This document shows positions 1 through 52,938 of a stretch of 64,000 nucleotides of DNA, piece after piece. Below the pieces are notes generated by a model. The model saw only the letters and a program-made list of their open reading frames with translations. It was not told the DNA's origin and searched no databases. A program made the translations under genes and the position numbers. Position 1 is the stretch's first letter. Each line of letters starts with the position of its first letter. Origin of the DNA: an uncultured virus (IMG/VR IMGVR_UViG_3300032093_000098) (taxonomy: Duplodnaviria; Heunggongvirae; Uroviricota; Caudoviricetes); IMG/VR virus record IMGVR_UViG_3300032093_000098, one strand, 5' to 3'.

Positions 1-132
1 GTGCGCTAATTTAATCACGATCTGCGTCCATCAATCGGCTTTTGTCGTATTTAATTTATTCATTTTCTATATGTCAATTTTTTGTATGTCTTTACAAAAT
101 ACCACTGTGTTGATAATCTTTATTGAATTTAT

Positions 133-585
133 TTAGTGCTTGCTAAATCCAAAATACTTGTCTAAAAACTTCATAAACGCCATTGAGCAATATTCGTTTT
201 CGTAAATGTACTTTAGATAAGGAATTGGAATGTACCGAATTTTTCTTTCAGCGTATCTGCCAAATGGCATTATTGAATCTAACGTCATGTTTTCAACTTC
301 CTTTTTTCTTTCCTCGTTTTGACGTTTTCTTTCCTCGATTAGAATATCCATTATATCAAAAGAGTTATTGCCAAAATATAGCGTCAAAAACTCTTTGGTG
401 TCGGTTATTACTCCTCGCTCATTACTTGCAATTACGTGGTACTTTTTACTGTTTATGAAAACATCAATTTTTAGTGATTGCTTCCAAAGACGAAAATGAG
501 AAAATTGAATTTTGCGAACTTTGAAATTTAATTCATCCGCTAACTTGTAAATTTCATCCAAAAATTCATTTGATTGAGTTTTCAT
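133..585 (-). CDS. Hypothetical protein with C-terminal DUF3820/QSregVF_b-like domain
   Basis: C-terminal MPFGRYAERKIRYIPIPYLKYI resembles the MPFGKY..hP..YL.W motif of this small domain family. Confidence 0.55.
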   Translation of the reverse strand: MKTQSNEFLDEIYKLADELNFKVRKIQFSHFRLWKQSLKIDVFINSKKYHVIASNERGVITDTKEFLTLYFGNNSFDIMDILIEERKRQNEERKKEVENMTLDSIMPFGRYAERKIRYIPIPYLKYIYENEYCSMAFMKFLDKYFGFSKH

Positions 586-639
586 TTTTTTTTTTTGATT
601 TTTAGATTTAATTTATTTAGTATTTTATTGTTATTATTC

Positions 640-990
640 AGAGGGATTAGATTCGGATGGGAAAGAAGTGTCAGCCCCGCTAATTTCTTAACTGGTTGCC
701 ACCTCTCCTGAAAAAACGTCATTATTCGTCGGTCATGAGTTCATCAGGTCAGCCATTTTGAAACATGGTCGTCAAATGGCGTGGAAGTCTTTAAGTTTGA
801 TCCACAAACTCGTCGGCCTACGTCACTTTCCTTAGTGTCAACGTTGATAGTATTACCGACCGCCCTCATTCCGTGTCTACCTATGTGTGTTTGGCCACGT
901 CGTGTTTAGCCCCCAATCCAAACACACTTTATTTGTTATCTCGAAAATCATCCGTGTTCTAAGTGCTCAGAGAAAGCGCGGAAATTTTAC
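640..990 (-). ncRNA. Candidate structured non-coding RNA or long leader
   Basis: No ORF >=60 aa; hairpins at 751-780, 794-810 and 884-927; lies downstream of the promoter at ~1156-1190. Confidence 0.35.
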
Positions 991-994
991 CCAA

Positions 995-1096
995 CAAAAA
1001 AGCCAGTAGGTAGGATCTACTGGCTTAATTGTATCGTTTCGGAGAAGTATTTTAACTCTCCTCCACTTGTTTACCGATCCTACCGATTAACAAGTG
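995..1096 (-). promoter_or_regulatory. Leader with terminator hairpin and upstream hairpin whose loops are complementary (copy 1)
   Basis: AAGCCAGTAG-GTAGGAT-CTACTGGCTT (1000-1026) with U-tract on the minus strand; CACTTGTT..AACAAGTG (1064-1096); GGTAGGATC (1009-1017) is the reverse complement of GATCCTACC (1076-1084). Confidence 0.65.
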
Positions 1097-1155
1097 ATGG
1101 CTTAGAAGCCAAACGAAGGTACATTACAAAACACACCTTCCGTTGAAGGATCGGC

Positions 1156-1188
1156 ACAAAACTAAAACATTTTCTTTTCCGATGCAAG
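1156..1188 (-). promoter_or_regulatory. Bacteroidota-type housekeeping sigma promoter
   Basis: Minus strand reads TTGCAT...TAGTTTTG (TAnnTTTG -7 box). Confidence 0.6.
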
Positions 1189-15891: not shown

Positions 15892-15958
15892 TGTGTGGTA
15901 TTTTGTAAAGCAAATTTAATGAAAAGCATCCGCAAGGGAGCTGTTTTGGTAGAAAAAT

Positions 15959-15983
15959 AAAGCCCGCGCTGGCGGCGGGCTTT
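15959..15983 (-). terminator. Intrinsic terminator
   Basis: AAAGCCCGC-gctggcg-GCGGGCTTT with U-rich tail on the minus strand. Confidence 0.65.
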
Positions 15984-15986
15984 AAA

Positions 15987-16678: not shown

Positions 16679-16763
16679 TGTGATAATTTTTTAATTGGGT
16701 GAATTTAGATCGCAAAAATAGATAGAACTTAAGTCGGTTGTGTGAATTCGGAAATAATTTATG

Positions 16764-18034: not shown

Positions 18035-18203
18035 TGATTAATTTTTTATTTAAGATATTGATTACATACAAATAGATTCGCAAAAATAACGACTTGTTGC
18101 AATTGGTAGAATTTACAGCGAAATGAATTAATTCTAAAAAAATATACCCAGTTGGGTACAAAGCAGGGCATTAACCCGTTTTTAACACCTAATAGGGTAT
18201 GAC

Positions 18204-19166: not shown

Positions 19167-19198
19167 TTTTATTATTGATTTGTTAAAAAAAAAGGAAT

Positions 19199-19217
19199 GG
19201 GGCGGTTTTTCCGCCCC
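19199..19217 (-). terminator. Terminator-like hairpin after SSB
   Basis: GGGGCGG-aaaaa-CCGCCCC followed by a U-rich tract. Confidence 0.5.
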
Positions 19218-19224
19218 AAAATGA

Positions 19225-19854: not shown

Positions 19855-19934
19855 TTTTTTTATGATTAATTATTAATTGTGAAATGCAAACATATAACAC
19901 GCAAGGCTTGTGACCAAATATTTTTTGTTAATTT

Positions 19935-21875
19935 TTATTCCCACGACTCTTTGTGCCCGTTTGGGTGGGTCTCCTCTTCCCATTCTTTGATGTCTTTAGA
20001 GTCTGTCCAGCTTCTGTTTGGCCTTATTGCCGACGGCTTTGGCTGCTCTATTGGGTACTGAACATTTTTTCCATCAATTGCTTGCTGCAGGTAGTCTACG
20101 CCGTTAAATGTAAATCTCCTGATTCTTCTGTTAAGCTGAAAAATGCAAAATCCTTTTTGACCCACTATTTTTTGCTTCTTGATTTTTTTGCTGTGGAATT
20201 CGCACGTCGGATCATCCGGAGCCGTTTGGGCAAATGGCCTGTGATAAATCAGTATGTTGTCAACCTTGTTGTTCCACATCGCTCCGTCAGCCAAATCAAA
20301 AACGTCAGGGCACGGATAGTTTCCGTCATCGCCCTTCCTCATCTTGTGAGGGTGAATAACAATGTCAAAGCAAACGTTGTTTTTTCTTGCGAAACGCGTG
20401 CAGTCCGACAAAAACGTTTCAAGGTACTTATCCGTTCTTCCCGAGCTCTTAGCATAATCGTTGGCCATTTGGTTGAACGGATCTATGACGACCCTGTCTA
20501 CGTTGAATTTTATTATCAAGCTGAGGAATATCTCCTTGACATAATCAGGGGTAGGGGCTACGTCTTTTGGGTAAACCATAAAAATGTGCTCGCCGATCAT
20601 TTTGTACACCTTCATGTACGATTCGTATGGCGGTCTCCCTGGGTTGTTAGGAGTGCAGTCGCACCCAAAATATATCTCTACAAGATCGTGGTAAAACTGC
20701 TCCGCAGGAAGTTCTTCCGGCGTGAATATGGCCACCTTTTCGCCAAAAACAACCATTCTGAAGATCATTTCCCACTTCATAAATGCCGATTTCCCGTAGT
20801 TTCCTATTCCTGATATCGCGGTAAGCTCCCCTTTTGCTCTTTTGAAATGTTTGTCAATCTCCGGGACACCAAGCGGTTGGGCTGTCTTGTACCCATTAAG
20901 GTATATGCTTGCCGCCCGATCAGAAACCTCTTCCGCATAAATAACATCTTCTTTCGACATTTCTGCGGCGTCTTCTTCCGTAATGATTATGTCGATCTCT
21001 CTCTTGGTTGTTCTTGTCACAAGTTTCTCGTTGGTAAACTCAGCGGTGTTCCATTGTGACTTATTCGCCCTGTAGGCGCTTCTTACGGCGTTTCTGCATT
21101 CTTTTTGACTAAAGCTTGCGTCTGGCACAACATATGTCATCATCATGTTGTAACACGTTTCCTCAAGCATTCCAAACCTACAGCAACTCGCGGCGAGTTT
21201 GAACACAAAATGATTTCTCTCGCCTTCCCGAAAAGCATCTCCTCTTGATGCCATCCATGTTAAAAGGTTGTTGAATATTTTGTCATCGTCGGTAACTGTA
21301 ATTTGCTCCGTGTGTTGCCTCCTGTTTTCTACACGATCGGAGACCGGCAGCTTATCGAACGCCAGAGCCTGATGATTCATCAAAATATTCGGGTCAAACG
21401 ACTCAAAACATAGTCTTGAAACGTTTCTGCCGGTCTTATCGGCATCTGGAAACTCCTGCATAAGCGCGTCAAAGTGCTCGGCATGCTTTGACTCCCATTC
21501 TATTTCAACCAAGGCTTTTACTCCGTTTCCAGAAGGAGAAATCCACGCGGCTAAAACATACTTGGAAAGCGCCAACTCTTTCTTTTTTTGTTCAGCATCT
21601 GGCACCTTGTCAAAATCAAGCACAACATACCCGGAATGCTCCATCAGGCTTCCGTCTGCCCTTTTTGAAAACCTACCGCTAAAACACACTCCAGGTAGCG
21701 TTTTTTTGATTTCGTCAGCTTCTTCTTTTGTCTTGGCCGATCTGATCTTTTCGACAGTTTCACGAGACTTACCGTCTTTAATCCTGTCAAGAGCCTTGGA
21801 AATAGTGATCACGTCACCGGTAATGTCTCTTGAGTTTCTGTATATGGAAACCTTACCATTTATTGTTTTCGTCAT
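19935..21875 (-). CDS. Primase-helicase: BT4734/VirE-N domain, PriCT-like domain, SF4 (DnaB/Twinkle-like) helicase
   Basis: KKTLPGVCFSG, LDFD, SPSGNGVK, SRLCFESFDP; GERNHFVF; Walker A GIGNYGKS, Walker B VVIDPFN, HPHK. Confidence 0.85.
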   Translation of the reverse strand: MTKTINGKVSIYRNSRDITGDVITISKALDRIKDGKSRETVEKIRSAKTKEEADEIKKTLPGVCFSGRFSKRADGSLMEHSGYVVLDFDKVPDAEQKKKELALSKYVLAAWISPSGNGVKALVEIEWESKHAEHFDALMQEFPDADKTGRNVSRLCFESFDPNILMNHQALAFDKLPVSDRVENRRQHTEQITVTDDDKIFNNLLTWMASRGDAFREGERNHFVFKLAASCCRFGMLEETCYNMMMTYVVPDASFSQKECRNAVRSAYRANKSQWNTAEFTNEKLVTRTTKREIDIIITEEDAAEMSKEDVIYAEEVSDRAASIYLNGYKTAQPLGVPEIDKHFKRAKGELTAISGIGNYGKSAFMKWEMIFRMVVFGEKVAIFTPEELPAEQFYHDLVEIYFGCDCTPNNPGRPPYESYMKVYKMIGEHIFMVYPKDVAPTPDYVKEIFLSLIIKFNVDRVVIDPFNQMANDYAKSSGRTDKYLETFLSDCTRFARKNNVCFDIVIHPHKMRKGDDGNYPCPDVFDLADGAMWNNKVDNILIYHRPFAQTAPDDPTCEFHSKKIKKQKIVGQKGFCIFQLNRRIRRFTFNGVDYLQQAIDGKNVQYPIEQPKPSAIRPNRSWTDSKDIKEWEEETHPNGHKESWE

Positions 21876-22665
21876 AAGTAGGGGCTTGTTTTTTCATGTT
21901 GACTATATCTGTTTCGGTGGAAAATTCTTGTTCCCAGCATCTTTGGTTTAACCATGTCTGTAGGTTTTTCCATTGTGGGAAAAATTCTTTTTTAGACCTT
22001 GCGGCCTCTCGCGCTGCCAACTCCTTATCAAGAGCCGGCATGAGTAGCGGGAGCGCTTCTTTCCAGTCCTTGTGCTTTTTGAACGTTCTGAACTCTGTCA
22101 TAGACCCCTTCTTGGTTCCGCCATACTTTTTACGGAAATCCTCAAAGGATGCCGGCACCTGATTTTTGACTTCCTCGCACAGCAGCGGTTTGGGGGCTGA
22201 ATTTGAAAACTTCAAGCGATCAAACACATCTCTTTTGTATGTATTTTTATTTCTTTGTAAAGTTGTTTCTTTGTATATACCCGGTTCTACCGATTGTCGG
22301 TTTTCACCGATAACGGGAAAACCTGATATCGGTGAAAGCTCATCTTGGTTGAGCTCGTGCTGTGGGGAATCATAGATGACGTGATCCCAGCCAATTAGTT
22401 TACCGGTAGATTTGTCCGACGTCCTTTTGCTGAAGATGTACCCCTTGTCTTGAAGGGACTTAAAAACCCTGTCTATTGCATGCTTCCCATCAGGAAGGCG
22501 CTCATAAAGATTTTTTTTGTAAATCACCCAGTCGTCAGGAAGAGACAAAAGGAACGACAACATCCCCTTCTCTTCAAGCGTTAGGCCAACGGACTGAGTC
22601 AGTTCGTTTGGCAAGACGGAGAACCCGTGTTTGCGCTTGGCTTTAATTATTTGTCCTGTATTCAT
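21853..22665 (-). CDS. Phage replication initiator / HTH replisome organizer
   Basis: FSVLPNE..LTLEEKGMLSFLLSLPDDW N-terminus and WKNLQTWLNQRCWE C-terminus; likely start MNTGQ. Confidence 0.75.
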   Translation of the reverse strand: MNTGQIIKAKRKHGFSVLPNELTQSVGLTLEEKGMLSFLLSLPDDWVIYKKNLYERLPDGKHAIDRVFKSLQDKGYIFSKRTSDKSTGKLIGWDHVIYDSPQHELNQDELSPISGFPVIGENRQSVEPGIYKETTLQRNKNTYKRDVFDRLKFSNSAPKPLLCEEVKNQVPASFEDFRKKYGGTKKGSMTEFRTFKKHKDWKEALPLLMPALDKELAAREAARSKKEFFPQWKNLQTWLNQRCWEQEFSTETDIVNMKKQAPTYDENNKW

Positions 22666-22669
22666 AGAA

Positions 22670-22764
22670 GAAAAAAAACAAGCCCCGTGTGGAGTACCGG
22701 GGCTTGGGTTGGTCAAACTTGCGTTCAACTTGCCAAACCCTCATTTTGACTCCACTCAAAATGA
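22670..22764 (-). promoter_or_regulatory. Leader with terminator hairpin and complementary-loop upstream hairpin (copy 2)
   Basis: AAGCCCCG-TGTGGAGTAC-CGGGGCTT (22680-22705) with U-tract on the minus strand; TCATTTTGA-CTCCAC-TCAAAATGA (22741-22764); GTGGAGT and ACTCCAC are complementary. Confidence 0.65.
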
Positions 22765-22785
22765 CGGCCTGGCTGTAAGACTTTG

Positions 22786-22874
22786 CAAACATAGCAAAAC
22801 AAAATCATCTTGTCAACATTTAATCGAAAATATTTTATCAACTATTGACACGTCGTTAATTGTATGTATATTTG
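22786..22874. promoter_or_regulatory. Back-to-back divergent promoters (replication vs late module)
   Basis: Minus: TTGACA-N17-TATGTTTG (22816-22786); plus: TTGACA-N16-TATATTTG (22845-22874). Confidence 0.8.
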
Positions 22875-22889
22875 CAAATAAAAAACGCA

Positions 22890-23102
22890 ATGCTTACACC
22901 GCCGGACGGAACTGTTTTTGTAGAGTCAGTAAACAACAAGGGCAAACACATTGAGGCCGTTATTGAGTCAATTGGGGCTGACGTTGATTATGAAGTAGGA
23001 ACAAAGGTTGGCATTATTGGGCACATCGAAAAGCTTGAGATACAAGGGGAAACTAAGTTCTCAGTAAACGAAAAATACATAGCATTTATAATTGAACAAT
23101 GA
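22890..23102 (+). CDS. Small GroES-like protein
   Basis: P..G.VFV..AVIESIG..V..EVG.KV..GETKFSVNEKYI pattern. Confidence 0.45.
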   Translation: MLTPPDGTVFVESVNNKGKHIEAVIESIGADVDYEVGTKVGIIGHIEKLEIQGETKFSVNEKYIAFIIEQ

Positions 23103-37196: not shown

Positions 37197-37924
37197 TCAT
37201 AAAAGATATTCGATATATTGCTACATCCGCGTTGTACAGGCTCGGCAAATCACCCAGCGGCAGAGAGCTTAACTGGATGGTTCAGGTGGCTATTGACTAT
37301 ATGAGCGAAAAAGCGCCGCTTGACGGGTTAGTTAGTCTCAAGACGATTCATACCAAGCTGGATACCGGCGCAAGGGTATTCACGCTCCCGCCCGACTGCA
37401 TGCGGATTGTGAAAATCGGAATGAAGTCAGGAAAGAGGATATGGACTCTTACTCCAGACACGTCTCTTGTTTTTCCCGATTCGGCCTTTTCTTGTGAAAG
37501 CGACTCTACGGATCCGGTTATTACCGACGGGTATTATCCGTCGGGTTATTTTGGGTATTTTTACGGGTATCAAAACTACACCAGAGGCAGCGGAAGAAAT
37601 GAGAATTATTACCGAATAGACGGCAGAAATATTTTGTTTGACCACAACATGGATGGCGGACAGGTGGTTATTGAATATCTGTCCAATGGGTCAAACATTA
37701 GCGACAAGACATTGATCGATATGGCTTATGCCGAGCCTTTCAGGCTTTACTTGATGAGCGAATATTGCTTTCACAAGGGCAACGCCATGGATCGACCAAA
37801 ATATAAAGAGCTTCAAATGCAATACGAGGCCGCCCAGTGGAGCGCAAATCTCCTTGTGAAGGCTCCGAGGCTTTACGAAACAATAGACGCGCTTGCTCAA
37901 AGCTCGGCTCTAAATCTTGGGTAA
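37193..37924 (+). CDS. Tail tubular/ring protein
   Basis: LPPDCMRIVKIG..YRID..VVIEYLSNG. Confidence 0.6.
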   Translation: MIIKDIRYIATSALYRLGKSPSGRELNWMVQVAIDYMSEKAPLDGLVSLKTIHTKLDTGARVFTLPPDCMRIVKIGMKSGKRIWTLTPDTSLVFPDSAFSCESDSTDPVITDGYYPSGYFGYFYGYQNYTRGSGRNENYYRIDGRNILFDHNMDGGQVVIEYLSNGSNISDKTLIDMAYAEPFRLYLMSEYCFHKGNAMDRPKYKELQMQYEAAQWSANLLVKAPRLYETIDALAQSSALNLG

Positions 37925-40900
37925 TGGATTTTAATGAGCAAATAATATTTACCGGTGGGATCAACACCGACGATGACACAAGGTCAATACCGCAAGGTGA
38001 CTACAGGGACTTCAATTATTGTAGGCTCGGGCAGGCGGCGGGGCAGGGCGCTTCCGTTATTACTTCTTGGGGCACTGTCGATATTTCGAACCCAGAAGTA
38101 GACCCTCGCGATCAAGTGATAGGAGCCACAATATGGGATAGGGCGCAAGGAGCGTCGAGATCGATCGTTTACTTTGTTTGGGCGTATGACAATGATCATG
38201 AAATATGGGTTTTTGACATCAACACAGAAACGCACCAACTTGCTGTCAGATCTCAGCACCTAAATTTTTCGAAAGACTTCCCGATTATTCACGCCAACAC
38301 GTTTGACGACATATTAAAGTTCACAGACGGAAGATGGAACGACCAAATGTACATTGATGGCAACAGGGTTTTCAATCCTCCGTACCAGATCAATCTCGAA
38401 AAGGCAATCAGCGGCTTTTACACGAATATCAGCCTGCAAACAATCGATGCAATTAAGTGGCCACCTATACCTCCATACGTTCAATATATCACTGATATCT
38501 CAAGGAACGACAACAAGATTTCAAAGAAGCTTTTTAAGTTCTGCGTTCAGTACATTTATGAGAACAACGAGTTGAGCTCGTGGTCGATGTATAGCAATCT
38601 TCCTCTTCCGGATCAGTCGGAATTTGTCACCGGCTCGAACTGGCTCAGAACGAATTATGACAACGGAATATCGATCACGTTTCCAACAGGGCCGAAGGAA
38701 GTTATTGGATTTAATATTGCCGTGCAGCAATTCGACGAAAGCACGGGTGGAGCGGAAGGCCCGTTTTCTGTTTTTGCCGAAAAAAACAAAGAAAGAGACA
38801 GCATCTCTGATGACGTTAATTACACGCTGAATTTTTATGGCAATGTTTCGTCAAAGGTCGCTGTTGATTTCCAAAAAAATTACGACAGGTTACCTATCGC
38901 CGCCAGGTGTCAGGAGTATTTGCCTACCAGCCAAGTCGCTTACATTAACTTCAGGGAAGGCTACAACAAAATAGAAATTGCCGCAGAAGCGGATTACGTC
39001 ATAAAAGGCGTGAAGTGGTCCGCGTTTTCCGGCCTGATATTCACGGCTGTTTGGGACGGAGTCGGCGGGGGGACGCTAAAGACTGGTGTGGATTTATGGG
39101 ATGTAAATACAGAGTTCCCGTACAGCGCAGGTATGGTCATAACCATAAATGGCCCAACGACCATACCTACTCTTCTCGGGTATATTGTGACCCAAGAAGA
39201 CGTTGATGCCGCGTTGGCTCTACCTACCGTTCTTGATCAGAACGAATACATGTTTCAGTTGATAGGGGACTTTTTTATGTCCGCTCTTGGTCAACCGGCC
39301 GGGACGATAGCCGTTGTTGGCAGTATTTTGGAATATTACTTCACCGACATCCCGAGCGACATCAACATAACAAAGAGCAAATTTACAAGGCTCAACGACG
39401 CGAGGCCGACGTTGAAAACGGGCGCAACGCATGAGTTCGGGATAGTTTATGGAGACAGGGCTTTCAGGGACGGTACTGTTCAAACTTCTGATCAAATGAG
39501 CGTTTTTGTGCCGTTCTTTTTTGACATAGACAGAACGTCCCTTGACAATAGTTACGATCCATTCACTGTTTCCCCAAAGATTTCGATAAACCACACCCCG
39601 CCGGTTTGGGCTGATCGGTACTGGATTGTCGCAAAGCCAGCCACTGAGATATTGAGTTTTGGGCACTACATGGTTTCTGTTGAAAACATCTACGCCGAGC
39701 CCGCTGTCATATTGGATTCTGCAAGTCAAGAGACAAGGTACAAGATAATTTTAGACAACAAGTACACCAATGTTTACAACATAGGCGCAACTATAAATCA
39801 CGTTCCTCAAAAAGGAGACAAGCTCCGATTCGTAAGGAGACGATCTCCCGAGGTGTGGGATAATTTTAGCAGCGTGCTTGGCGGATATGCTCAGTACGTT
39901 GAGGTGGATGTTCTTGACTACTTCCCGGCTGATGGTCCAGGCGGACGCCCGGTTGTCTACACAACCCTTTTCGACATTGGTCTCATTGAGAACTTTGACA
40001 ATATTGAAAACCCGGGCGGATACATTGTTGAGATATACACCCCGCGCCCGTTTGTTGATGATGACGGGGGCTTGTTTATTTCCGGGTGGAAGGACATAAC
40101 CCCGTCGATCCCAATTATTGATCCTCACACCCCTGACAGGAGACATGGTGCCCCGTTTGACTACACGGCTCAATGCATTGAGATCGCTCCTGATAGCTAC
40201 GTTTTCTCAATGACAAGCGACAGAACCGATTTGATTGGGCAATCTTTTAACCTTGTTATTTATTACAACGACGGATCAACCGAGACCGTGAATTCTGAGC
40301 AGATAGTCTCGGCCGAATATCGCGTTGACAACAATACGACTTATATCACGTTTTTGAATCAGGACGCATTTGACCAGATATCGTATATTACGATGTCTTA
40401 CAGCTCTCCCCAACAAATAGCTCCGCAGCCGGTGCTTCCGGCATACATTTACCCTTCGTATGGAGACGTGTACCTTAGAATGAGGAATTTCGGAACCGGT
40501 TACGCCGGCGTTTCGTCTCAGTATTATTATTACATTGAAGATCCTCACTATTCGGACTATTGGCTTAGCGACGTGCACAATACGGGCAGAACCAGGATTG
40601 AGTCTCCCACGTTTCAAATGGTGCACCGTAAGGCTGACGCCATTCATTCCAATCCCTATGGAGGCTTAAACAGGTCTGTAAACGGAACCTCTACCTTTGT
40701 CCTTGACAACTCAAATATTATTGAGATGAACCCTCTTTTTGGAGAGGTGGTTAGGGCTATCATGGCCGGCAGAGAGGGTAAAACGCTTAAATGCATTCAG
40801 CCGTTTAAGGAAAACTCTATTTACATACAGTTCTACCCCAACGAGGTCGGATCGGACTCTTCGGTAAGGGTTAGTAAGGCCACGTTCGCGTCATGGTTTG

Positions 40901-42246
40901 ACTACAAGTCTCGATTTGGAACAACCGATCCCGGTTCTGTAGCTCTTTTGCCAAACGGCGAAATTGCTTATTTTGACGCAAATTCCGGCGTATTTGTTTT
41001 GTCTCAAACCAACGGTCAAACAATCATCAGCGAGATTGATCCGTCAAGCAGGGTTGATTTTAAGTTCAGGACTGAAACAAAAAGAATTGCGGGCTTGTTT
41101 TCAAAAGGCAGCGGCTCGAAATGCAGGGCATACGTCAACGAGCTTTTGGGCGAGGTCGGTTTTGCCTTCGATCTCGTAGAGAGTTCGGAGTCTGCTACAG
41201 GTCTCATTTCTTTTGCGGACGCCGGGACAAATTACTTTATTGCCGCAGGATCAGAAGAGGACATACTTCCTCTTTTAGGCAATGAGATTACGATTTACCT
41301 CCCTCTCCCGGATTCTCCGTACAATCTCGCTCCGCAAACAACAATTGTTGATTATGTGGCGTCTTTTGGTTCGAGTGTCGTGATTTTTATTCGAGATCCG
41401 CTGCTTTACACTTATTCCGGCGAGCCAAGGCCAGTCGGAGAAGATCCGTATTACTACATATCGCCCAAAAAAGAACGAAAGCATGTTGTTTTCGATTATT
41501 TGTCAATGAGGTGGAGATCGACTTACGATTATCCGTTCACAAATTTTGTTAACTACGGACAACTATTGTTCGGGTGGGATGAGCAGGCGAGATTTTACAA
41601 GCACAACGAAAAGTCCTCTTATCAATTTCACGGAAAGGACTTCGTTCAAAAGATAACGTTTGTTTCGAACGAGCGCCCTCTTGATGTCAAAAGGTATCAG
41701 AATTTTTCTCAAATGGGATCTCAGCCGTTTACGGTTGAGGCTTCATCTGAGCCAAATTTGAGCTACACGTCAGGCATGTACACAATAATAGCTCCTCAGG
41801 AGATGAGCCAATACGAGGGCTACACGAGGTGTTATTACAAGAAAAATTTGTACGACCCAGTATTTTTAAATTCCGCTATTCAGTCGACATCTTTTGTTGG
41901 TATAGATCCTGATATCGACGACTTTGTTGCTGGCTGGGAGCTTGCCGGAAATCAAACTGGGCTACTTGGTGTCGAGGTGGTTATTATTCAGCCGAACGGA
42001 AACTTCATAGGGGTCGTTACCTCCGCCGATTACGACTCCGTCTCTGACATTACTTTTATTGAAACGACATATGGGAACCCTGTTGATACCGGGATTCCTG
42101 GCCTTCTTTATTCTGCCGATTTAGCAATATCCGCAGGCGAAGACATGAGGTCTTATTCGTTAACACATACGCTGAGTTATCCTGTTTCGGAAAATGAATT
42201 GCCGGCACAGCTATTTGGTGTTGCAATTAAGGGCGTACTTTCATAA
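37924..42246 (+). CDS. Tail nozzle/stabilization protein (P22 gp10 / crAss muzzle-like)
   Basis: Start MDFNEQIIFTGGINTDDD; 1440 aa, beta-rich; LKTGATHEFGIVYGD. Confidence 0.75.
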   Translation: MDFNEQIIFTGGINTDDDTRSIPQGDYRDFNYCRLGQAAGQGASVITSWGTVDISNPEVDPRDQVIGATIWDRAQGASRSIVYFVWAYDNDHEIWVFDINTETHQLAVRSQHLNFSKDFPIIHANTFDDILKFTDGRWNDQMYIDGNRVFNPPYQINLEKAISGFYTNISLQTIDAIKWPPIPPYVQYITDISRNDNKISKKLFKFCVQYIYENNELSSWSMYSNLPLPDQSEFVTGSNWLRTNYDNGISITFPTGPKEVIGFNIAVQQFDESTGGAEGPFSVFAEKNKERDSISDDVNYTLNFYGNVSSKVAVDFQKNYDRLPIAARCQEYLPTSQVAYINFREGYNKIEIAAEADYVIKGVKWSAFSGLIFTAVWDGVGGGTLKTGVDLWDVNTEFPYSAGMVITINGPTTIPTLLGYIVTQEDVDAALALPTVLDQNEYMFQLIGDFFMSALGQPAGTIAVVGSILEYYFTDIPSDINITKSKFTRLNDARPTLKTGATHEFGIVYGDRAFRDGTVQTSDQMSVFVPFFFDIDRTSLDNSYDPFTVSPKISINHTPPVWADRYWIVAKPATEILSFGHYMVSVENIYAEPAVILDSASQETRYKIILDNKYTNVYNIGATINHVPQKGDKLRFVRRRSPEVWDNFSSVLGGYAQYVEVDVLDYFPADGPGGRPVVYTTLFDIGLIENFDNIENPGGYIVEIYTPRPFVDDDGGLFISGWKDITPSIPIIDPHTPDRRHGAPFDYTAQCIEIAPDSYVFSMTSDRTDLIGQSFNLVIYYNDGSTETVNSEQIVSAEYRVDNNTTYITFLNQDAFDQISYITMSYSSPQQIAPQPVLPAYIYPSYGDVYLRMRNFGTGYAGVSSQYYYYIEDPHYSDYWLSDVHNTGRTRIESPTFQMVHRKADAIHSNPYGGLNRSVNGTSTFVLDNSNIIEMNPLFGEVVRAIMAGREGKTLKCIQPFKENSIYIQFYPNEVGSDSSVRVSKATFASWFDYKSRFGTTDPGSVALLPNGEIAYFDANSGVFVLSQTNGQTIISEIDPSSRVDFKFRTETKRIAGLFSKGSGSKCRAYVNELLGEVGFAFDLVESSESATGLISFADAGTNYFIAAGSEEDILPLLGNEITIYLPLPDSPYNLAPQTTIVDYVASFGSSVVIFIRDPLLYTYSGEPRPVGEDPYYYISPKKERKHVVFDYLSMRWRSTYDYPFTNFVNYGQLLFGWDEQARFYKHNEKSSYQFHGKDFVQKITFVSNERPLDVKRYQNFSQMGSQPFTVEASSEPNLSYTSGMYTIIAPQEMSQYEGYTRCYYKKNLYDPVFLNSAIQSTSFVGIDPDIDDFVAGWELAGNQTGLLGVEVVIIQPNGNFIGVVTSADYDSVSDITFIETTYGNPVDTGIPGLLYSADLAISAGEDMRSYSLTHTLSYPVSENELPAQLFGVAIKGVLS

Positions 42247-44659: not shown

Positions 44660-47600
44660 ATGGCTGTCCCAGCAAATGTAAAATATTACGAGTATCTCAA
44701 GTCAAAAAAGCTCGATGTGCCACCGACGTACGATTCGTTTCAAAAAACCCTCTCGGACAAAGAGAAGGCGATGAAGTACTATTCCTATCTTTCATCCAAA
44801 AAGTCCCAGGGCATGGACGTCGACATCCCTGCTTCTTTTGACTCTTTTTACAACACGTTAAACCCAAAGGGGGCATCATCAGAGGTTGGCGCGGCTTCTG
44901 GAGAAGATTTAAACGCGCCGCAGCAGCCTTCCGCTCCGAGTTTTACGGGGGCGAAAGGAATGAAGCCAAGGGGAATTCAGCCCGCCTTAAAACAAGAAGC
45001 TGAAAAGCCACGGCCAACCAAACCGTATCAAGATATCATGCCAAAGATGGAGGAAGCTCCATCCGAAACAACGCAGGCCGCAGTTCCCGCTCCTATATCG
45101 TTTGCCGAGCAGGAGCAAGAAAAGGCAAACGAAAGCATAAGGAGAGGATATCTACCATCGAATCCAGCGATAGTTAACGACCGTGTAATTAGCGAGGTAG
45201 AGAAGGTCAGAGAAGAGGAGGGGATGGAGCCTATAGAGGACGTTTTGTCGAGAAGGGTTGCCCTCAATCAGATAGACGACGTAATGGAGACTTTCGGTCT
45301 ATCAAGCGAACAGGTTGACGACTATATGGAAAATTCGGCAAGAGACATTGACTCGATGGCTCTTGACCAGATAACCCAGGCGGCGGGCATGGACAGTGAA
45401 TTTCTTGAATACAAGAAATCATTAAAGACGGGAGACGCCATAAGCCCCATCTATCAAGGAAGGATGAGGGAGAGTCAAAAAAAGGTTTTTGACGCAGCTA
45501 TGGGCGACTATTGGAATTTCTTGGCGAGAAGCAATTACGGGGCATACAAGGACAACAAGGACAAGTATGATGCGCTGAAGGCAAAGACTGCCGAGGAGAG
45601 AACGACTGAAGACGAAAGATGGTTAAAGCTCACGGAAGACAGAGCCACGGCTCTCTATTCCGCTGCGGCAAAGAAGGAGGCTATTGGTTTGAAGGATAAT
45701 ATTTCCCAAAAACTAAAATCTGTTGCCGGCGTTGATTACGGAAAGTATCTTTCTGCGACAAAAGACTTCAATGCCAAGGCTTCTGCTCTTGAAAAAGAGC
45801 ACGCCGCCGGGAAGATAAACGACCAACAGTACGAGGAAAAATACAATGCTGCGTACGATGAATTAGAGGCCATCAAGAGAGACTCGGGCGTGAATGATAG
45901 CACAATGGCTACACTCAATGAGATTGACGACCTGACGTCAAAATACGGGCGGACACTCCTGAAAGACGTAGCGGTAAAAACTTCAGGTTTTTCCGAGACT
46001 CGTAGCTACGATAAGTGGCTCGAGGAACTGGAAGAGAAGAAAAGGAATTCGGAAGACTATGAGAGGTTGTGGAAGGAGTCTGGGGCGTTCGGTAAAGCGG
46101 TGCTTGGAGGTTATGAGTTTACCAGGAAATTGGGTGGCAGCGTATTTAATTCCGCTATGGACGTGGCTGGGGGTCTCGTGAGAGTTCTTGATGCTGCGGA
46201 CGCCAAGGGGCTTTACCAAGGTGTTGGCTATGATTTTTCGGATCAGATGTACGACAAAATCATGAACATGAAGGCCGTAACAGAATCCAAAAGGTTTGAT
46301 GCGGACGCCGATTCTGTTCTTTATAATTTGGCCGACATGACCGGAAACGGATTTGGTTCTGTTGTTGCTTTTGGTCTTGGCGGATCTGCGGCACTTGCTT
46401 TAAAGGCGCCGGCAGCCGCTGGCACGTTCGTCACAGGATACCTCATGGCCGAGTCATCTACTTATCAAGAGTTGATGGATAGCGGCGTCGTGTCAAGCCA
46501 GGAGGCCACCTTGATCTCAAATGCCGTAGCGCCAGTGGTAGCCTCCATAGAACTTCTTGTCCCTGACTCAAAAGTTATCCAGGGGTATGTTCGACCGGCC
46601 ATAAGAGCTGCCGTTGTTCAGGGAAAGCCTCTTTTGAAGGCTGTTGACGAATCCTTGCAAACATACGCAAAGTCATTTGGCAAAGAGGCGTTCGAAGAGG
46701 GACTTGGATATGTGGGTGAGGTGTCGGCAAAAAACATTGTTGACGCGGTTGGCGGCTACGATTATTTCAATCAAGAGTTTTCACTGAAGGACTTGGTGAT
46801 CAATTCTCTTGGCGGCGGGCTTACCGGCGGCTTGATGAATTTCTTCAGCTACTCATCAACTCCATCTCCCGTTAAAGAGAGGGCGGTTCTTGAGATGGCT
46901 GAAAACGGGCAGCAGATTATAGATTCACACAAAAACGAAAGAACCATATCGGATCTCAGGACCACGCTGAGCAAGCCGATGGAAGATTTGCGCGGGCTTA
47001 AAGCCCATCCAAATTGGAACAATCTCGACAGAAGCAAGCAAGCCCGGGTTTTTTCCATTAGTCAGCAAATAAGATCCCTCGAAGAGTCATCCGTACAAGA
47101 CCCGATCGTTAAGGCTCAGGTCGGCAGATTGAAGGCTGAGCAGCAAGAAATATTGTCTCTTGGCGCGAACGGAATGGACGCAAAGGCTGTTGGTGTTTCG
47201 ACTGACAAGCAGAGGGTTTTTATTGGTGATCAGCAGGCGTTTTTTTACATAAACGAGGACGGCGATTACGAGATAGAGTACAATGACGGCAGAAGCGTTG
47301 TTGTGTCTAAGGGCGAAGGCGCAGCCGAAAAGGTTCGTGCCATGGGGATAAGGGCCGACGACGGAGAGGTCGCGGCAATGAATAAAGAGAATCAAAACAC
47401 ACTCATTACCCCAAGGCTCGAAAGAGGTGCTACTGTTGACTACAACGGAAAGAACGCAACGGTAAATAGCTACAAAGAAAAAGACGGCAAGGTGGTGTAT
47501 GTAAATTTGACCACCGAAGACGGAAGGACTCTGCAGATCAGGGAAGGTCAGGCAGGGGTGGGACAAGAATTATTAAATAATTTAAATAATCTACCTTATG

Positions 47601-50600
47601 ATCAAAAAGACCAAACAAGGATATCAGGTGAAGTCGGAAAAGGGCAAGAACCTGTCACAACCCAACCTGTCGAAAGCACAAGCGAAGAAGCGCCTGCAAC
47701 AGGTGGAGTTCTTCAAGCACAAGAAGAAATAGACTCTGTAAGACAGCGGATAAATGCAATTGAAGCCGCAAGAAGAGAGGGCAGAATCCTTGAAGATGAA
47801 AAGCCTAATGAATTAAAGGGACTTAAGGCAAGGGAAAAAGAATTATTGTCCCAAGAGACCAAACCGTCTGGACAAAAATTAACCGTTGGAAGCAAAATTC
47901 AATGGGACGTATTCGGCAATGAATCAATGAATGAATGGACTGTTGCTGAAGAAACTACAACTAAAGGCGGACAACCAGCGGTAAGGCTTACTCGGTTTAT
48001 AGAACAGGGCGTTGCCGAAGGCGGCGGAGTTGCGGGGTACACTCAAGAACATATTGTGCCAATCGCTGACTTGCAAGGCAAGCCGGCCGCCGAAGCCGCC
48101 CCCCAAACACAAGGGCAAGAAGAAGTAATAGCTCCACAAGCAACAGAAGAAGCCGCTCCAAAGACCGAAGAAAAACCAACCCGTAAGACTCGACTCGCCA
48201 AATTATTTGAGGTATCCGAAGGAGAGGAGGCCGTGCCAGCAATTGAGCAGGCCCTTTCTGAAACCGGCATAAAGGTAGAAGTTATGGACGATGCCGAATA
48301 CAACGAGGACAATCGCATAAAAGACAGTCAAGGTCGCGGTTCAGAAGGTATGTTTGTGGCTGATGACGGAACGATTATCTTAAACCGAGATAAGATTAAG
48401 GGCGAATGGGGTAAAACTATCGTGTTCCACGAAGGTATTCACCCCGTGGTAAACATCATTCGCAACACTGATCCGAAACGATACAAGGCAATCGTGGAAG
48501 GACTAAAGGCAGAAGCTGCGAGGAACAACGATGTTGCCAGAGTTGCTGCCGACATTGCTGCTTCTGAAGAGTATCAAAGAAGAGGTCCTGAGAGTATTGA
48601 AGACGAGACCGTTGTTGAAACCATGGCTCGCGTGGCTACAGGGGATGTCAATATCGATAAGTTTGAACCTACCTTCCGCGAGAAGTTCATTGAATTCATG
48701 AACGACATAGCTAAGGCACTTGGATTGAGACCTATCCTCACAAATTCTCCACGAGTTGAGGTGAAGCGTTTGGCTGATCAGATCAACAAAATGTTGAATG
48801 AGGGCGGTAAAATTAGCGATGTTGTAGGGAAGAAAAATGTAGGTGAATTTCAGAACAAGATAACTTTAACCGATACAAACTCTGTTTTTTCAAATACAAG
48901 CTCTCAAGCCAGATTTGAAATGAAGTTTTTGGAAGACTCTGAAGACTTTACCAAATTAATAGAAGAAGGGCGCGTAGTTCATAACGCAAGTTTAGATGAC
49001 ATAAACGGAGAAACTGTTGTTATTCATAATCCGGATAACTTTTCAACTGGAGAAATAAAGTTCAGAGGAAAGGATCTTGTGAAGGGCGAAGGTGGTGTTT
49101 ACTTTGTTTTGCTGTACGATGATGTATGGGCCTCTGGTAAAAAATCAAGTGCTTCGCAATTAGCTTCTTTGATAAATGAGTCATTACAAAAATCAACTGA
49201 TGGTAAAGGTCGATTAGTTCTGGTAAAAGGAGACGCAAGCAAGAATTTAACAAGTGTAAAGGGAGCCAAGGCTCTTATGGGTGTTATGGAGATATTGGCG
49301 GATGATGGATTGATTCCGCTAAGTGCTTTTAGAAAAGCATTGAACATTGCCGGAAAGAAGTACGGTATCAATTTCGACGGAAGAAACGATGCTAAATCTA
49401 TCCACAAGGATATTCAGGATAAATTTATGAATGTATCCAATTCATCTTTCGAAAGAAGAGGTGATTTCGTTCGTGATGTAATTGATGCCATAGCCAATCA
49501 AAATGTATTGTCCAAGGAGGCTATAGCGGAAATCGCTGAATCTATTGGAGCTAAAAGGAAAATGACCACGTTCTCTAAGGCGAGCATCCTTGATTCTGTT
49601 GCGTATGCGACCAGCGAAAGGATGCTCAGAGATATTCCTAATTCTCATGTATACGCTGTAATAGAAACGTCTTCAAAAGTAAAGCCTGAATTTGTAGGCA
49701 AGCATGAGTCTTACCCATGGCATATAGTTACTGAGGACGGAAGCAAACCTATTCTTTATATACTTAAGGACAGACCATTCTATAACGATGCATTTGTAGC
49801 CGCTAAAAGCACTGAGAAAGTAAAAGAAGGGGAAAGATTTGGTGACGTAAGCCGTGCTGGATTGGCTCAAAGAGGCATGGGGCTTGCTAAAGTGGAAACG
49901 AAACCGACTGGCCAACCGTCCAAGGGCATCAAACGCGGCAGAAACTTAGTCAAGGACACCTACTACGAAGCCGGCCTGACCGAAGACAAGAATGACTATG
50001 TATTCTTCCATGTATCGTCAGCTCCCAAGGCTTCGATTATGAAGGGTATTGATAGTACCAAGTATACCTCGCTTAGAACGGCAAGAGAAGAGAAGGGCCT
50101 ACAATATGGTGTTGCCTCTTATTACACTCGTCCGGAAGATGGAGAAAGAATGGTGGGTGGTGAAAAGTATGCGGTTCGCGTACCTAAGGGCAAGGTTTAT
50201 CCTATCGATTCCGATCCAATGGGATACGGAGAAAAGGCTGAGGAAAATGTACCACAAGGTACACCATTCCGTGGAGAGGCCGTGAAGCGTGAGATCGCAG
50301 ACATGGCTAAGAAGGATGGATACCAAATGATTGTTGGCGAGTGGTCTTACAGCCGCACTGGAAAGCCAGCAGGAGAGATTCCTGAGTTCCGCGCAGACGC
50401 ACTTGTGCCACTCAAGCCTACTGCCGAGAAGCCAACGTCGTTCACATCAAACGCCGAGAAGGGCATGGAGAGAATTCCGTTCCCAAGTCAGCAGAGCGAA
50501 CAGGCTAAGCAGGAACTTGAGAACATCGCCTCTGAGGTGCGTGATATTATGTCGAGCAAGAAGAAGTTCTCAAGCAAGGAATACCAGCTTGCCGACAGCG

Positions 50601-52441: not shown

Positions 52442-52938
52442 TTAAAAAACTTGACAAAAAGGTTGTAGATCTTCTTCTCCCTCGGATGAAAGATGAATAC
52501 AGCGCATTTTACTTTTATCGCGCCGCCAGCAATTGGTGCCAAGGGGTTGGCTTTTTTCAAGCCGCCAAGTTTTTTGCCGCTGAGTCGCAGGACGAGCTTG
52601 AGCATGCAAAGAAAATTGAAAAATACATCACCGATTGGAACGTAATCCCGGAACTGCCGACTGTAAATCGCCCGCAGATTGAGTTTTCGGGCATCATGGA
52701 GGTGTTGGAAGAGGCTTACAAGCTTGAATACGACCTGTACGAGGCTTACGAAGAAACGTCTAAGAAGCTTTTTGAGATTGATCTGTGCGCGTTTGATTTT
52801 CTCCAACCGTTGCGATTGATCCAGAACGATTCCGTATCCGAGTATAGCGACAAGCTGAACCTGCTCGAAGGAGTAGACGTTGCCGATAAGTTCAAAGTTT
52901 TATTGTTGGAAGAAAAGTTGTTTTCCGTAAATGGCTAA
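52438..52938 (+). CDS. Non-haem ferritin (FtnA-like)
   Basis: E..A...Y...NW..G..AAKFF..ES.DE.EHA.K..Y; LE; FDFL..Q; ATGA overlap with the upstream stop. Confidence 0.85.
   Translation: MIKKLDKKVVDLLLPRMKDEYSAFYFYRAASNWCQGVGFFQAAKFFAAESQDELEHAKKIEKYITDWNVIPELPTVNRPQIEFSGIMEVLEEAYKLEYDLYEAYEETSKKLFEIDLCAFDFLQPLRLIQNDSVSEYSDKLNLLEGVDVADKFKVLLLEEKLFSVNG

What the first reader, a model, noticed from the sequence alone, without database searches (positions are those of the whole stretch)
995..1150. Kissing-loop attenuator architecture, copy 1, repeated with unrelated sequence at 22.7 kb
Seen: downstream of a minus-strand promoter lie hairpin A (1064-1096), a middle hairpin (1041-1061) and a terminator-like hairpin B (1000-1026) with a U-tract. 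The loop regions of A and B are 9-nt exact complements (GATCCTACC/GGTAGGATC). The same layout occurs at 22670-22764 with a different sequence, which is natural covariation. Inference: a cis RNA switch in which loop-loop pairing tunes termination. I do not recognise it as a named family.
Basis: partly seen in the sequence, partly recalled or inferred. Interest (0 to 1): 0.8.

Follow-up and report, generated by a model that had tools for sequence, protein, structure and literature searches.

The report
Kissing-loop leader RNAs in a phage
Two short promoter-to-terminator RNAs in a freshwater Bacteroidota-type phage carry a 5' hairpin loop that base-pairs with the loop of their own terminator hairpin, and this pairing co-varies across dozens of related phages, mostly in front of the replication-initiator gene, pointing to an undescribed RNA control element with many natural specificities.

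Summary
On the minus strand, a TAnnTTTG promoter box is followed by a 5' hairpin, a middle hairpin and a GC-rich hairpin with a U-run. The loop of the 5' hairpin is an exact complement of the terminator loop: 9 nt at 1009-1017/1076-1084 and 7 nt at 22689-22695/22749-22755.

Copy 2 is the leader of a replication-initiator gene. Among 82 unique leaders of homologous genes from viral and metagenome contigs, 66 carry the same arrangement, with 25 different complementary words. The exact cognate complement is present in 65 of 65 leaders tested, against 30 of 3948 non-cognate pairs. Two closely related leaders differ only by a 3+3 compensatory block in the two loops.

Copy 1 belongs to a second family with five variants, and its loops also co-vary.

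No Rfam family matches, and no description turned up in the paper searches.

The pairing is therefore real and under selection. Whether it tunes termination, translation or a trans-acting RNA remains untested, because no RNA data were available.

My best reading is a promoter-proximal leader that gates the replication module, with the loops acting as a specificity code.

The parts
1157..1164 (-). Copy 1: promoter -7 box TAGTTTTG (Bacteroidota-type TAnnTTTG). A TTG lies about 21 nt upstream, at about 1185-1187.
   Evidence: The box is kept in all five copy-1 family variants (TATCTTTG, TATATTTG, TACTTTTG). The consensus itself is recalled, not tested.
1099..1149 (-). Copy 1: 5' proximal small hairpins (CCUUCAACGGAAGG or the alternative GAAGG...CCUUC, and GGCUUCUAAGCC).
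   Evidence: They are partly conserved in L155, L156 and L159.
1064..1096 (-). Copy 1: hairpin A. The outer stem is CACUUGUU/AACAAGUG, and the apical region carries the word GGUAGGAUC (1076-1084).
   Evidence: The stem is conserved and the apical word is variable in relatives.
1041..1061 (-). Copy 1: middle hairpin GGAGA-loop-UCUCC. It is the most conserved part of the family.
   Evidence: the columns are invariant across the 5 variants.
993..1026 (-). Copy 1: intrinsic-terminator-like hairpin (1000-1026) whose loop word GAUCCUACC (1009-1017) is complementary to hairpin A, followed by a U-run.
   Evidence: GGCTTTTTTGTTG is invariant in the family.
22786..22793 (-). Copy 2: promoter -7 box TATGTTTG.
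   Evidence: Of the 66 homologous leaders that carry the element, 59 have an exact TAnnTTTG ending 87-124 nt before the ATG.
22732..22773 (-). Copy 2: 5' hairpin of 17 pairs, including two G-U pairs. The loop word GUGGAGU lies at 22749-22755.
22712..22729 (-). Copy 2: middle hairpin.
   Evidence: A middle hairpin is present in all 16 type-I leaders, with variable sequence.
22670..22706 (-). Copy 2: terminator-like hairpin (22679-22706) with loop word ACUCCAC (22689-22695), then GUUUUUUUU (22670-22678).
21853..22665 (-). The gene gated by copy 2: a 270-aa replication-initiator / DnaD-like helicase-loader relative. A primase/helicase gene follows at 19935-21875.

Best explanation
Each element is a short promoter-proximal RNA, about 85-150 nt, that starts a few bases after a Bacteroidota-type promoter and ends in an intrinsic terminator. 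The loop of its 5' hairpin forms a 6-11 bp helix with an unpaired segment of the terminator hairpin: the apical loop in the window's two copies, and a 3' internal loop in some relatives. At copy 2 this folded leader sits between the early leftward promoter and the start codon of the replication-initiator gene, so it gates how many polymerases, and probably ribosomes, enter the replication module (initiator plus primase/helicase).

The loop-loop helix is required for that gate to work, and its sequence is free to change as long as both sides change together. This has produced many mutually orthogonal variants. Copy 1 is a second, orthogonal element of the same architecture. In the window it precedes a roughly 400-nt non-coding stretch.

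Shown here: the structure, promoter box, U-run and position; that the pairing is selected; that it acts at RNA level on the sense strand; and the diversity of specificities. Inferred: that the hairpin plus U-run really terminates, that the pairing changes read-through or translation, and in which direction.
For: - Structure and significance.
- Terminator features. In addition, 59 of 66 element-bearing leaders have a T-run of 5 or more just before the ATG, against 3 of 16 leaders without the element.
- Promoter box: 59 of 66 against 4 of 16.
- Conservation of the arrangement: of 82 unique leaders with an ATG start and at least 120 nt upstream, 57 have a loop-loop Watson-Crick complement of 6 nt or more at p<=0.05 in within-loop shuffles. 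Nine more have it by eye where the minimum-energy fold was wrong; eight of those were verified by word look-up.
- Specificity: the exact cognate complement is present in 65 of 65, against 30 of 3948 non-cognate pairs, with 25 distinct words.
- Formal pair counts on 16 type-I leaders: the kissing helix is 96.4% paired, and 2 of its 7 pairs switch GC->AU and AU->CG in 6 sequences each. The whole structure is 88.3% paired against 79.9% in shuffles (0 of 500 reach it) and 35-51% when slid.
- L048 and L049 leaders differ at 6 of 153 positions, all in the loops, as GCG->CTC paired with CGC->GAG. The surrounding 3.3 kb is 98.3% identical.
- Sense-strand RNA: frequent G-U pairs in the stems. An A->G change in L096 leaves a G-U in the kissing helix.
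- Copy-1 family: the cognate longest complements are 9, 6, 7, 8 and 11 nt, against 3-6 nt off the diagonal.
- The gated gene is a replication initiator.
Against: - No alternative (antiterminator) helix was found. The complementary segment lies in loops, so pairing is compatible with the terminator and gives no obvious switch.
- The hairpin and U-run end 9-17 nt before the ATG, so the effect could be on translation rather than termination.
- Sixteen of 82 leaders lack the element. In six of them the upstream sequence shows no promoter box or terminator-like hairpin and I read the gene as lying inside an operon. The initiator family therefore does not need the element.
- Copy 1 has no adjacent ORF, and five records carrying copy-1-type elements have no homologue of this initiator. 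The element is thus not tied to one gene.
- Many leaders are close relatives, so the number of independent compensatory events is smaller than the number of sequences.
Confidence: 0.6

Rival explanations
1. Self-addressed riboregulator. The terminated leader accumulates as a small RNA and acts in trans on nascent leaders of the same phage. Its terminator loop captures the 5' loop of a nascent transcript, or the reverse. This gives gene-dosage feedback on the initiator and makes the loops an incompatibility or immunity code, as with P4 CI RNA, IsrK or plasmid RNAI. It extends the best explanation rather than excluding it.
For: - The loops are among the most variable columns, next to strongly conserved scaffold (GGGTGCGG / CCAATCCC in type II).
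- There are 25 words in 65 leaders.
- A clustered 3+3 compensatory switch occurs in an otherwise identical leader.
- Two orthogonal elements occur in one genome, and two adjacent orthogonal ones in L062/L154.
- Loop changes of one to a few bases create new compatibility groups in I-complex plasmids (PMC10724649, abstract and passages).
- P4 blocks its own replication genes by leader-derived CI RNA pairing with seqA and seqC (PMC4825925, passage).
Against: - In a released leader the two loops can pair with each other, which would hide them from trans targets.
- No integrase or repressor was found, so there is no lysogenic immunity to serve.
- Covariation cannot tell intra- from intermolecular pairing.
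Confidence: 0.25
2. Self-associating structural RNA. The two complementary loops pair between molecules, giving dimers or rings as in phi29-type prohead RNA, and the RNA has a structural or scaffolding role rather than a regulatory one.
For: - Two loops of one RNA that are complementary to each other is the hallmark of prohead RNA, which multimerises by intermolecular kissing between identical molecules (PMC4201828, abstract seen in the listing).
- Copy 1 is a stand-alone RNA about 1 kb from the end of the window, near where a second assembly also ends.
Against: - The phage has an ordinary large terminase and portal.
- Most elements sit directly in front of a start codon.
- The linkers of 15-25 nt, or a middle hairpin, are long enough for intramolecular contact (the geometry is inferred).
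Confidence: 0.07
3. DNA-level element. The inverted words are binding sites for a dimeric protein, or form part of an origin next to the initiator gene, and the hairpins are incidental.
For: The words form an inverted repeat 60-68 bp apart beside a replication-initiator gene.
Against: - G-U pairs that would be A-C mismatches on the other strand or in duplex cruciforms.
- A G-U in the kissing helix of L096.
- A conserved promoter box upstream and a U-run downstream.
- The words always fall in RNA loops.
- A protein site would not drift through 25 unrelated words.
Confidence: 0.03

Closest known systems
Phage-plasmid P4 immunity (CI RNA with seqA/seqC) and its relative IsrK of Gifsy-1
   Same: Both have a promoter-proximal untranslated leader in front of the replication genes that contains short segments complementary to each other. 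In P4, RNA-RNA pairing causes premature termination, and a short form of the leader acts on longer transcripts from the same promoter (PMC4825925, passage read).
   Different: There is no sequence or structure match: the Rfam scans found nothing. P4 uses a processed RNA and two target sites, whereas here there is one pair and the partner is the terminator loop itself. The host phylum differs, and no lysogeny genes were seen.
Antisense RNAI / stem-loop I kissing control of rep in I-complex (IncI, IncB/O, IncK) plasmids, with the activator pseudoknot
   Same: A loop-loop kissing helix decides expression of a replication initiator, and changes of one to a few loop bases create new compatibility groups (PMC10724649, abstract and passages). 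A cis long-range loop pairing that activates rep translation is cited there (Asano and Mizobuchi 1998; reference list only, content recalled).
   Different: In the plasmids the partner is an antisense transcript from the opposite strand, so complementarity is automatic. Control is translational, and no terminator is involved. Here both partners lie on the same strand and must co-evolve.
Countertranscript-driven attenuation of rep in pT181 / pIP501-type plasmids
   Same: Both have an intrinsic terminator in the leader of a replication-initiator gene, with RNA-RNA loop contact as the input (recalled; the pT181 paper appears only in the reference list seen).
   Different: The plasmid systems need an antisense RNA and two mutually exclusive leader folds. 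Neither is evident here.
Prohead RNA (pRNA) of phi29-like phages
   Same: Both are phage RNAs with two loops complementary to each other (PMC4201828, abstract in the listing).
   Different: In pRNA the pairing is intermolecular and builds a ring on the portal, with no terminator or leader role. Those phages infect Bacillus (recalled). There is no match in Rfam.

Membership tests
Any Rfam 15 family | Score at or above the family's gathering threshold | tested here: not met
   There were 0 matches in the whole window and 0 in 20 related loci. Four copy-1-type loci gave 0 at E<=0.1. Local E-value scans give only sub-threshold chance hits, e.g. Thr_leader at 24.7 against 55 bits and GcvB at 17 against 42 bits.
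Intrinsic (Rho-independent) terminator | GC-rich hairpin immediately followed by a U-run | tested here: met
   1026-1000, 10 pairs, then TTTTGTTGGG; copy 2, then U8. A T-run of 5 or more is present in 59 of 66 related leaders. Actual termination was not tested.
Classical transcription attenuator / riboswitch expression platform | A mutually exclusive antiterminator helix that uses one arm of the terminator | tested here: not met
   The complementary word lies in the unpaired part of the terminator hairpin in the folds. It reaches at most 1-3 nt into the stem.
Riboswitch | Conserved ligand-binding core | tested here: not met
   There is no Rfam hit. The paired loops are among the most variable columns. 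At least five unrelated scaffold types share only the logic.
P4 CI / C4-type antisense RNA (family name recalled) | Match to the family model; two target sites flanking the RNA; processing from the leader | tested here: not met
   There is no model match, and only one complementary pair per element. Processing is not testable with these tools.
Countertranscript (antisense-gene) control | A promoter on the opposite strand reading through the leader | tested here: inconclusive
   There is no TAnnTTTG on the + strand within 22666-22790. One lies at 22407-22414 (+) inside the gene, but such boxes occur at the chance rate (55 against 48.9 expected), and its conservation was not examined.
phi29-type prohead RNA | Match to the pRNA model; a packaging motor without a conventional terminase | tested here: not met
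   There is no Rfam match, and a large terminase and a portal are present.

The most novel reading that the evidence does not exclude
The loop pair is a self/non-self address. The terminated leader is a trans-acting RNA that occupies the 5' loop of nascent leaders carrying the same word. This gives copy-number feedback on the replication initiator and sorts freshwater Bacteroidota phages into RNA-defined incompatibility groups. The 25+ natural words would be the product of diversifying selection, and a phage can carry two or more orthogonal channels for different modules.
Probability: 0.25. Interest if true: 0.9.

Novelty: new variant of a known kind. Interest (0 to 1): 0.78.

Why it matters
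RNA control of replication initiators through loop-loop contacts is textbook for enterobacterial and Gram-positive plasmids and for P4. I found nothing comparable described for phages of Bacteroidota, a phylum with its own promoter type and, as I recall, start-codon recognition that does not rely on Shine-Dalgarno pairing. Paper searches and passages of two large motif surveys gave no description, and Rfam has no model.

In this element both partners are written on the same strand of one roughly 100-nt RNA, and one partner is the loop of the terminator itself. Every change of specificity therefore needs a matched double change, and the record of such changes is unusually clean.

If the function is confirmed, three things follow. 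It would give a new regulatory logic for promoter-proximal terminators. It would provide a marker for replication modules in uncultured phages. And it would offer a ready-made natural set of at least 25 orthogonal kissing pairs on a few conserved scaffolds, useful for RNA engineering.

Tried and rejected
- **RNA-seq support:** no RNA holder was listed for the stretch, so no reads were laid.
- **Phage GenBank collection:** no DNA match to the first 8 kb.
- **Own assembly:** not held. The nearest record, G001, lacks the first ~8 kb and so lacks copy 1.
- **Flanking proteins of copy 1 as bait:** they gave only near-identical contigs. A DNA pattern on the conserved middle hairpin worked instead.
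- **Automatic terminator finder:** picking the lowest energy merged the kissing helix into a nested fold and was abandoned.
- **Type-II alignment (A4):** it could not be used for formal pair counts, because loop-length differences shift the register.
- **Copy-1 family loop test:** the within-loop shuffle test failed for 2 of 5 members because an inner stem hides the word in the minimum-energy fold. It was replaced by the cognate/non-cognate matrix.
- **Conserved leader peptide:** rejected by eye on the leaders. Short ORFs exist in some types but not in type III.
- **5' end pairing with the loop of hairpin A in copy 1** (the minimum-energy fold): not conserved in relatives.
- **Region 600-995 downstream of copy 1:** it does not fold better than shuffles (z -0.7).
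- **Earlier notes of this scan:** none.
- **Survey of 10,006 viral structured-RNA candidates (PMC10690425):** it lists one candidate upstream of DnaD-domain genes. Its sequence files could not be read, so overlap with this element cannot be excluded.

Full report
**What the window is.** Genes run leftward on the minus strand from 22665 to 1286 and rightward on the plus strand from 22890 to the end.
- The leftward block starts with a 270-aa relative of phage replication-initiation / DnaD-like helicase-loader proteins.
- It continues with a primase/helicase, a metallophosphoesterase, a Cas4-like nuclease and a NinB/Orf recombination mediator.
- The rightward block holds a large terminase, a portal, structural proteins and tail fibres.
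- No integrase or repressor family scored at E<=1e-5 among the 70 window ORFs scanned.
- Near-identical DNA occurs in runs labelled freshwater metagenome.
- Intergenic regions carry TAnnTTTG boxes. I recall this as the Bacteroidota -7 promoter consensus.
- Distant relatives of the initiator lie in Paludibacter and Cytophagaceae assemblies.

Copy 1, read on the minus strand:
- The -7 box lies at 1157-1164 and is followed by small 5' hairpins.
- Hairpin A is 1064-1096, the middle hairpin is 1041-1061, and the terminator-like hairpin is 1000-1026 followed by UUUUGUUGGG.
- GGTAGGATC occurs exactly twice in 64 kb, once in each of the two loops and on opposite strands.

Copy 2:
- The -7 box lies at 22786-22793.
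- A 17-pair hairpin carries the loop word GUGGAGU, followed by a middle hairpin.
- A GC-rich hairpin with ACUCCAC in its loop follows, then U8, then five bases and the ATG of the initiator gene.

Both RNAs fold much better than shuffles, with z -5.0 and -5.9. Loop complementarity alone is not statistically special in one genome. A permissive scan found 24 hairpin pairs with 7-nt complementary loops, against 6-21 in shuffled windows. Only these two sites have a T-run after the second hairpin. The case therefore rests on comparison with relatives.

**Copy 2 has a large family.**
- The initiator protein retrieved 59 viral loci. I used 57; two partial matches without the N-terminus, L004 and L055, were dropped.
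- An alignment of N-terminal domains retrieved 80 metagenome loci out of 157 relatives found, plus 10 genome loci. Three were dropped for lack of upstream DNA.
- This gave 109 unique 150-nt upstream regions.
- Of these, 82 end in ATG at the inferred start and have at least 120 nt upstream. The other 27 were set aside, although several show the element by eye (L066, L067, L088, L131, L141, L150, L152, L153).

Results for the 82 leaders:
- In 57, the minimum-energy fold contains two enclosed unpaired stretches with a Watson-Crick complement of 6 nt or more that is beaten by at most 5% of within-loop shuffles.
- Nine more have the complement where the fold or my 115-nt cut was wrong (L022, L026, L031, L048, L049, L105, L123, L124, L128). 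Eight of these were verified by word look-up. L123 has only 5 pairs.
- The 16 negatives have no element. In six of them (L018, L024, L025, L030, L100, L103) the upstream sequence shows no promoter box or terminator-like hairpin, and I read the gene as lying inside an operon. The rest have other contexts.
- Of the 66 positives, 59 have an exact TAnnTTTG ending 87-124 nt before the ATG, and 59 have a T-run of 5 or more just before the ATG. Among the negatives the figures are 4 and 3 of 16.

**The pairing co-varies.**
- The 65 leaders with a word of 6 nt or more use 25 different words. Examples are GAGTCAG/CTGACTC, GTTCAG/CTGAAC, ATGCAG/CTGCAT, GTGGCTT/AAGCCAC, GGGAAAC/GTTTCCC, GTGGAACA/TGTTCCAC, GTCGCAG/CTGCGAC, GTAGTATG/CATACTAC and AGAGCAAC/GTTGCTCT.
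- The exact complement of a leader's own 5' word is found in its last 77 nt in 65 of 65 cases. The complement of a foreign word is found in 30 of 3948 pairs, mostly because one word also occurs in a stem of another type.
- On an alignment of the 16 leaders built like copy 2, all helices are supported: 88.3% of cells are paired against 79.9% in shuffles (0 of 500 reach it) and 35-51% when the partner is slid.
- In that alignment the 7-pair kissing helix is 96.4% paired, with two positions switching together (G-C to A-U and A-U to C-G, six sequences each).
- The L048 and L049 leaders differ at six of 153 positions: GCG to CTC in the 5' loop and CGC to GAG in the partner. The 3.3-kb loci are 98.3% identical.
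- Stems contain many G-U pairs on the sense strand. L096 differs from L095 by an A-to-G change that leaves a G-U in the kissing helix. The structure is therefore RNA, on the strand of the gene.

**Several scaffolds, one logic.** At least five scaffold types share no obvious sequence.
- Long 5' hairpin, middle hairpin and simple terminator. This is the type of both window copies.
- Short 5' hairpin, A-rich linker and a tall terminator hairpin with a conserved GGGUGCGG / CCAAUCCC frame and the word in the apical loop.
- Types in which the word lies in a 3' internal loop of the terminator hairpin.

In every type the word sits in an unpaired part of the terminator hairpin. In the type-II alignment the word columns are among the most variable, next to nearly invariant frame columns.

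**Copy 1 has its own family.**
- A pattern on the conserved middle hairpin found seven viral loci, giving five distinct variants.
- The hairpin A stem, the middle hairpin, the linker GAAACGAUAA and GGCUUUUUUGUUG are conserved.
- The two words differ in each variant and remain complementary: GGTAGGATC/GATCCTACC, TGGTGG/CCACCA, GAGGTAG/CTACCTC, TGTGGAGA/TCTCCACA and TGTTGCGGGCA with its complement. In the matrix the cognate longest complements are 9, 6, 7, 8 and 11 nt, and the off-diagonal values are 3-6 nt.
- One relative (L062/L154) is 99.8% identical to the window up to the predicted start of the RNA, then diverges. The RNA and what follows it therefore behave as an exchangeable module.
- None of five records carrying copy-1-type elements encodes a homologue of the initiator; one of those records is rated complete.
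- In L155 the genes beyond the element are convergent.
- A covariance model of the copy-2 type scores copy 1 at 18.4 bits, E 0.04. It finds a further element in L154, directly before the ATG of a 233-aa HTH_36 protein, with words GAGAGA/TCTCTC.

The architecture is thus used in front of at least two gene families and in front of non-coding DNA.

**How it most likely works.**
- Shown: a promoter box, a compact RNA, a canonical terminator shape, and a selected loop-loop helix.
- Inferred: most transcripts end at the U-run, and the 5' loop, made one to three seconds earlier, meets the partner segment as it emerges.

Because the partner lies in a loop, the helix does not replace the terminator stem; it reaches at most 1-3 nt into it. 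The element is therefore not a classical two-state attenuator. The helix may stabilise or distort the terminator hairpin, or fix the hairpin next to the start codon 9-17 nt away. I cannot tell the direction.

Two features suggest that recognition between molecules also matters: the concentration of change in the loops and the presence of orthogonal copies in one genome. This parallels P4, where a leader-derived RNA pairs with seqA and seqC to stop transcription before the replication genes (PMC4825925, passage). It also parallels I-complex plasmids, where loop bases of RNAI set compatibility (PMC10724649). Covariation cannot separate intra- from intermolecular pairing, and a pRNA-like self-association remains possible (PMC4201828, listing).

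**Novelty.**
- No Rfam 15 family matches the window, 20 related loci or the copy-1 loci.
- Seven full-text searches found no description. Passages of a survey of 10,006 viral candidates and of a 2026 preprint on non-coding elements also gave none.
- That survey's sequence files could not be read, so an unnamed entry there cannot be excluded.

I rate the element a new variant of a known kind: RNA control of replication genes by loop-loop recognition, here with both partners in cis and the terminator loop as one partner.

Noticed in passing
L155:1285-1700 (+), L156:720-1135 (-), L159:725-1135 (-): Downstream of copy-1-type elements in three other phage records lies a conserved non-coding stretch of about 370 nt. 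It has many compensatory pairs: 25 of 75 predicted pairs change on both sides among only 3 sequences. There is no Rfam match. It may be an undescribed large structured RNA whose entry is gated by the element.
   Followed up: partly
window 600-995 (-): The corresponding ~400-nt non-coding stretch after copy 1 in the window shares only its first ~60 nt with L159. It does not fold better than shuffles (z -0.7). Its role is unknown.
   Followed up: partly
L154:1354-1478 (= L062 about 2156-2280): A further kissing-loop leader (words GAGAGA/TCTCTC) lies directly before the ATG of a 233-aa HTH_36 protein, only about 50 nt after the copy-1-type element of that phage. The two orthogonal elements are in tandem.
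   Followed up: partly
window 1-12; L061: An independent 7.2-kb viral contig that matches the window at 99.8% ends about 12 nt from the window's first base. The window may therefore start at a real genome end.
   Followed up: no
window 22867-22874 (+): The rightward (structural) gene block starts from its own TATATTTG box only about 15 nt before the ATG at 22890. Its leader is very short, in contrast to the structured leftward leader in the same 225-nt divergent region.
   Followed up: no
window 19198-19218, 15958-15984, 18143-18160 (-); TAnnTTTG at 19887-19894, 18081-18088, 16713-16720, 15911-15918 (-): Further terminator-like hairpins and promoter boxes lie inside the leftward block. The copy-2 leader therefore probably gates only the first transcription unit (initiator and primase/helicase).
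   Followed up: no
window 44660-52441, 52931-57160, 37924-42246 (+): Three very large ORFs (2593, 1409 and 1440 aa) lie in the structural block. Two of them have no PHROG match.
   Followed up: no
window 133-585 (-): The 150-aa protein after copy 1 has a borderline Pfam match to QSregVF_b (22.4 bits against a cut-off of 22). Its only relatives in the viral collection are identical copies.
   Followed up: no
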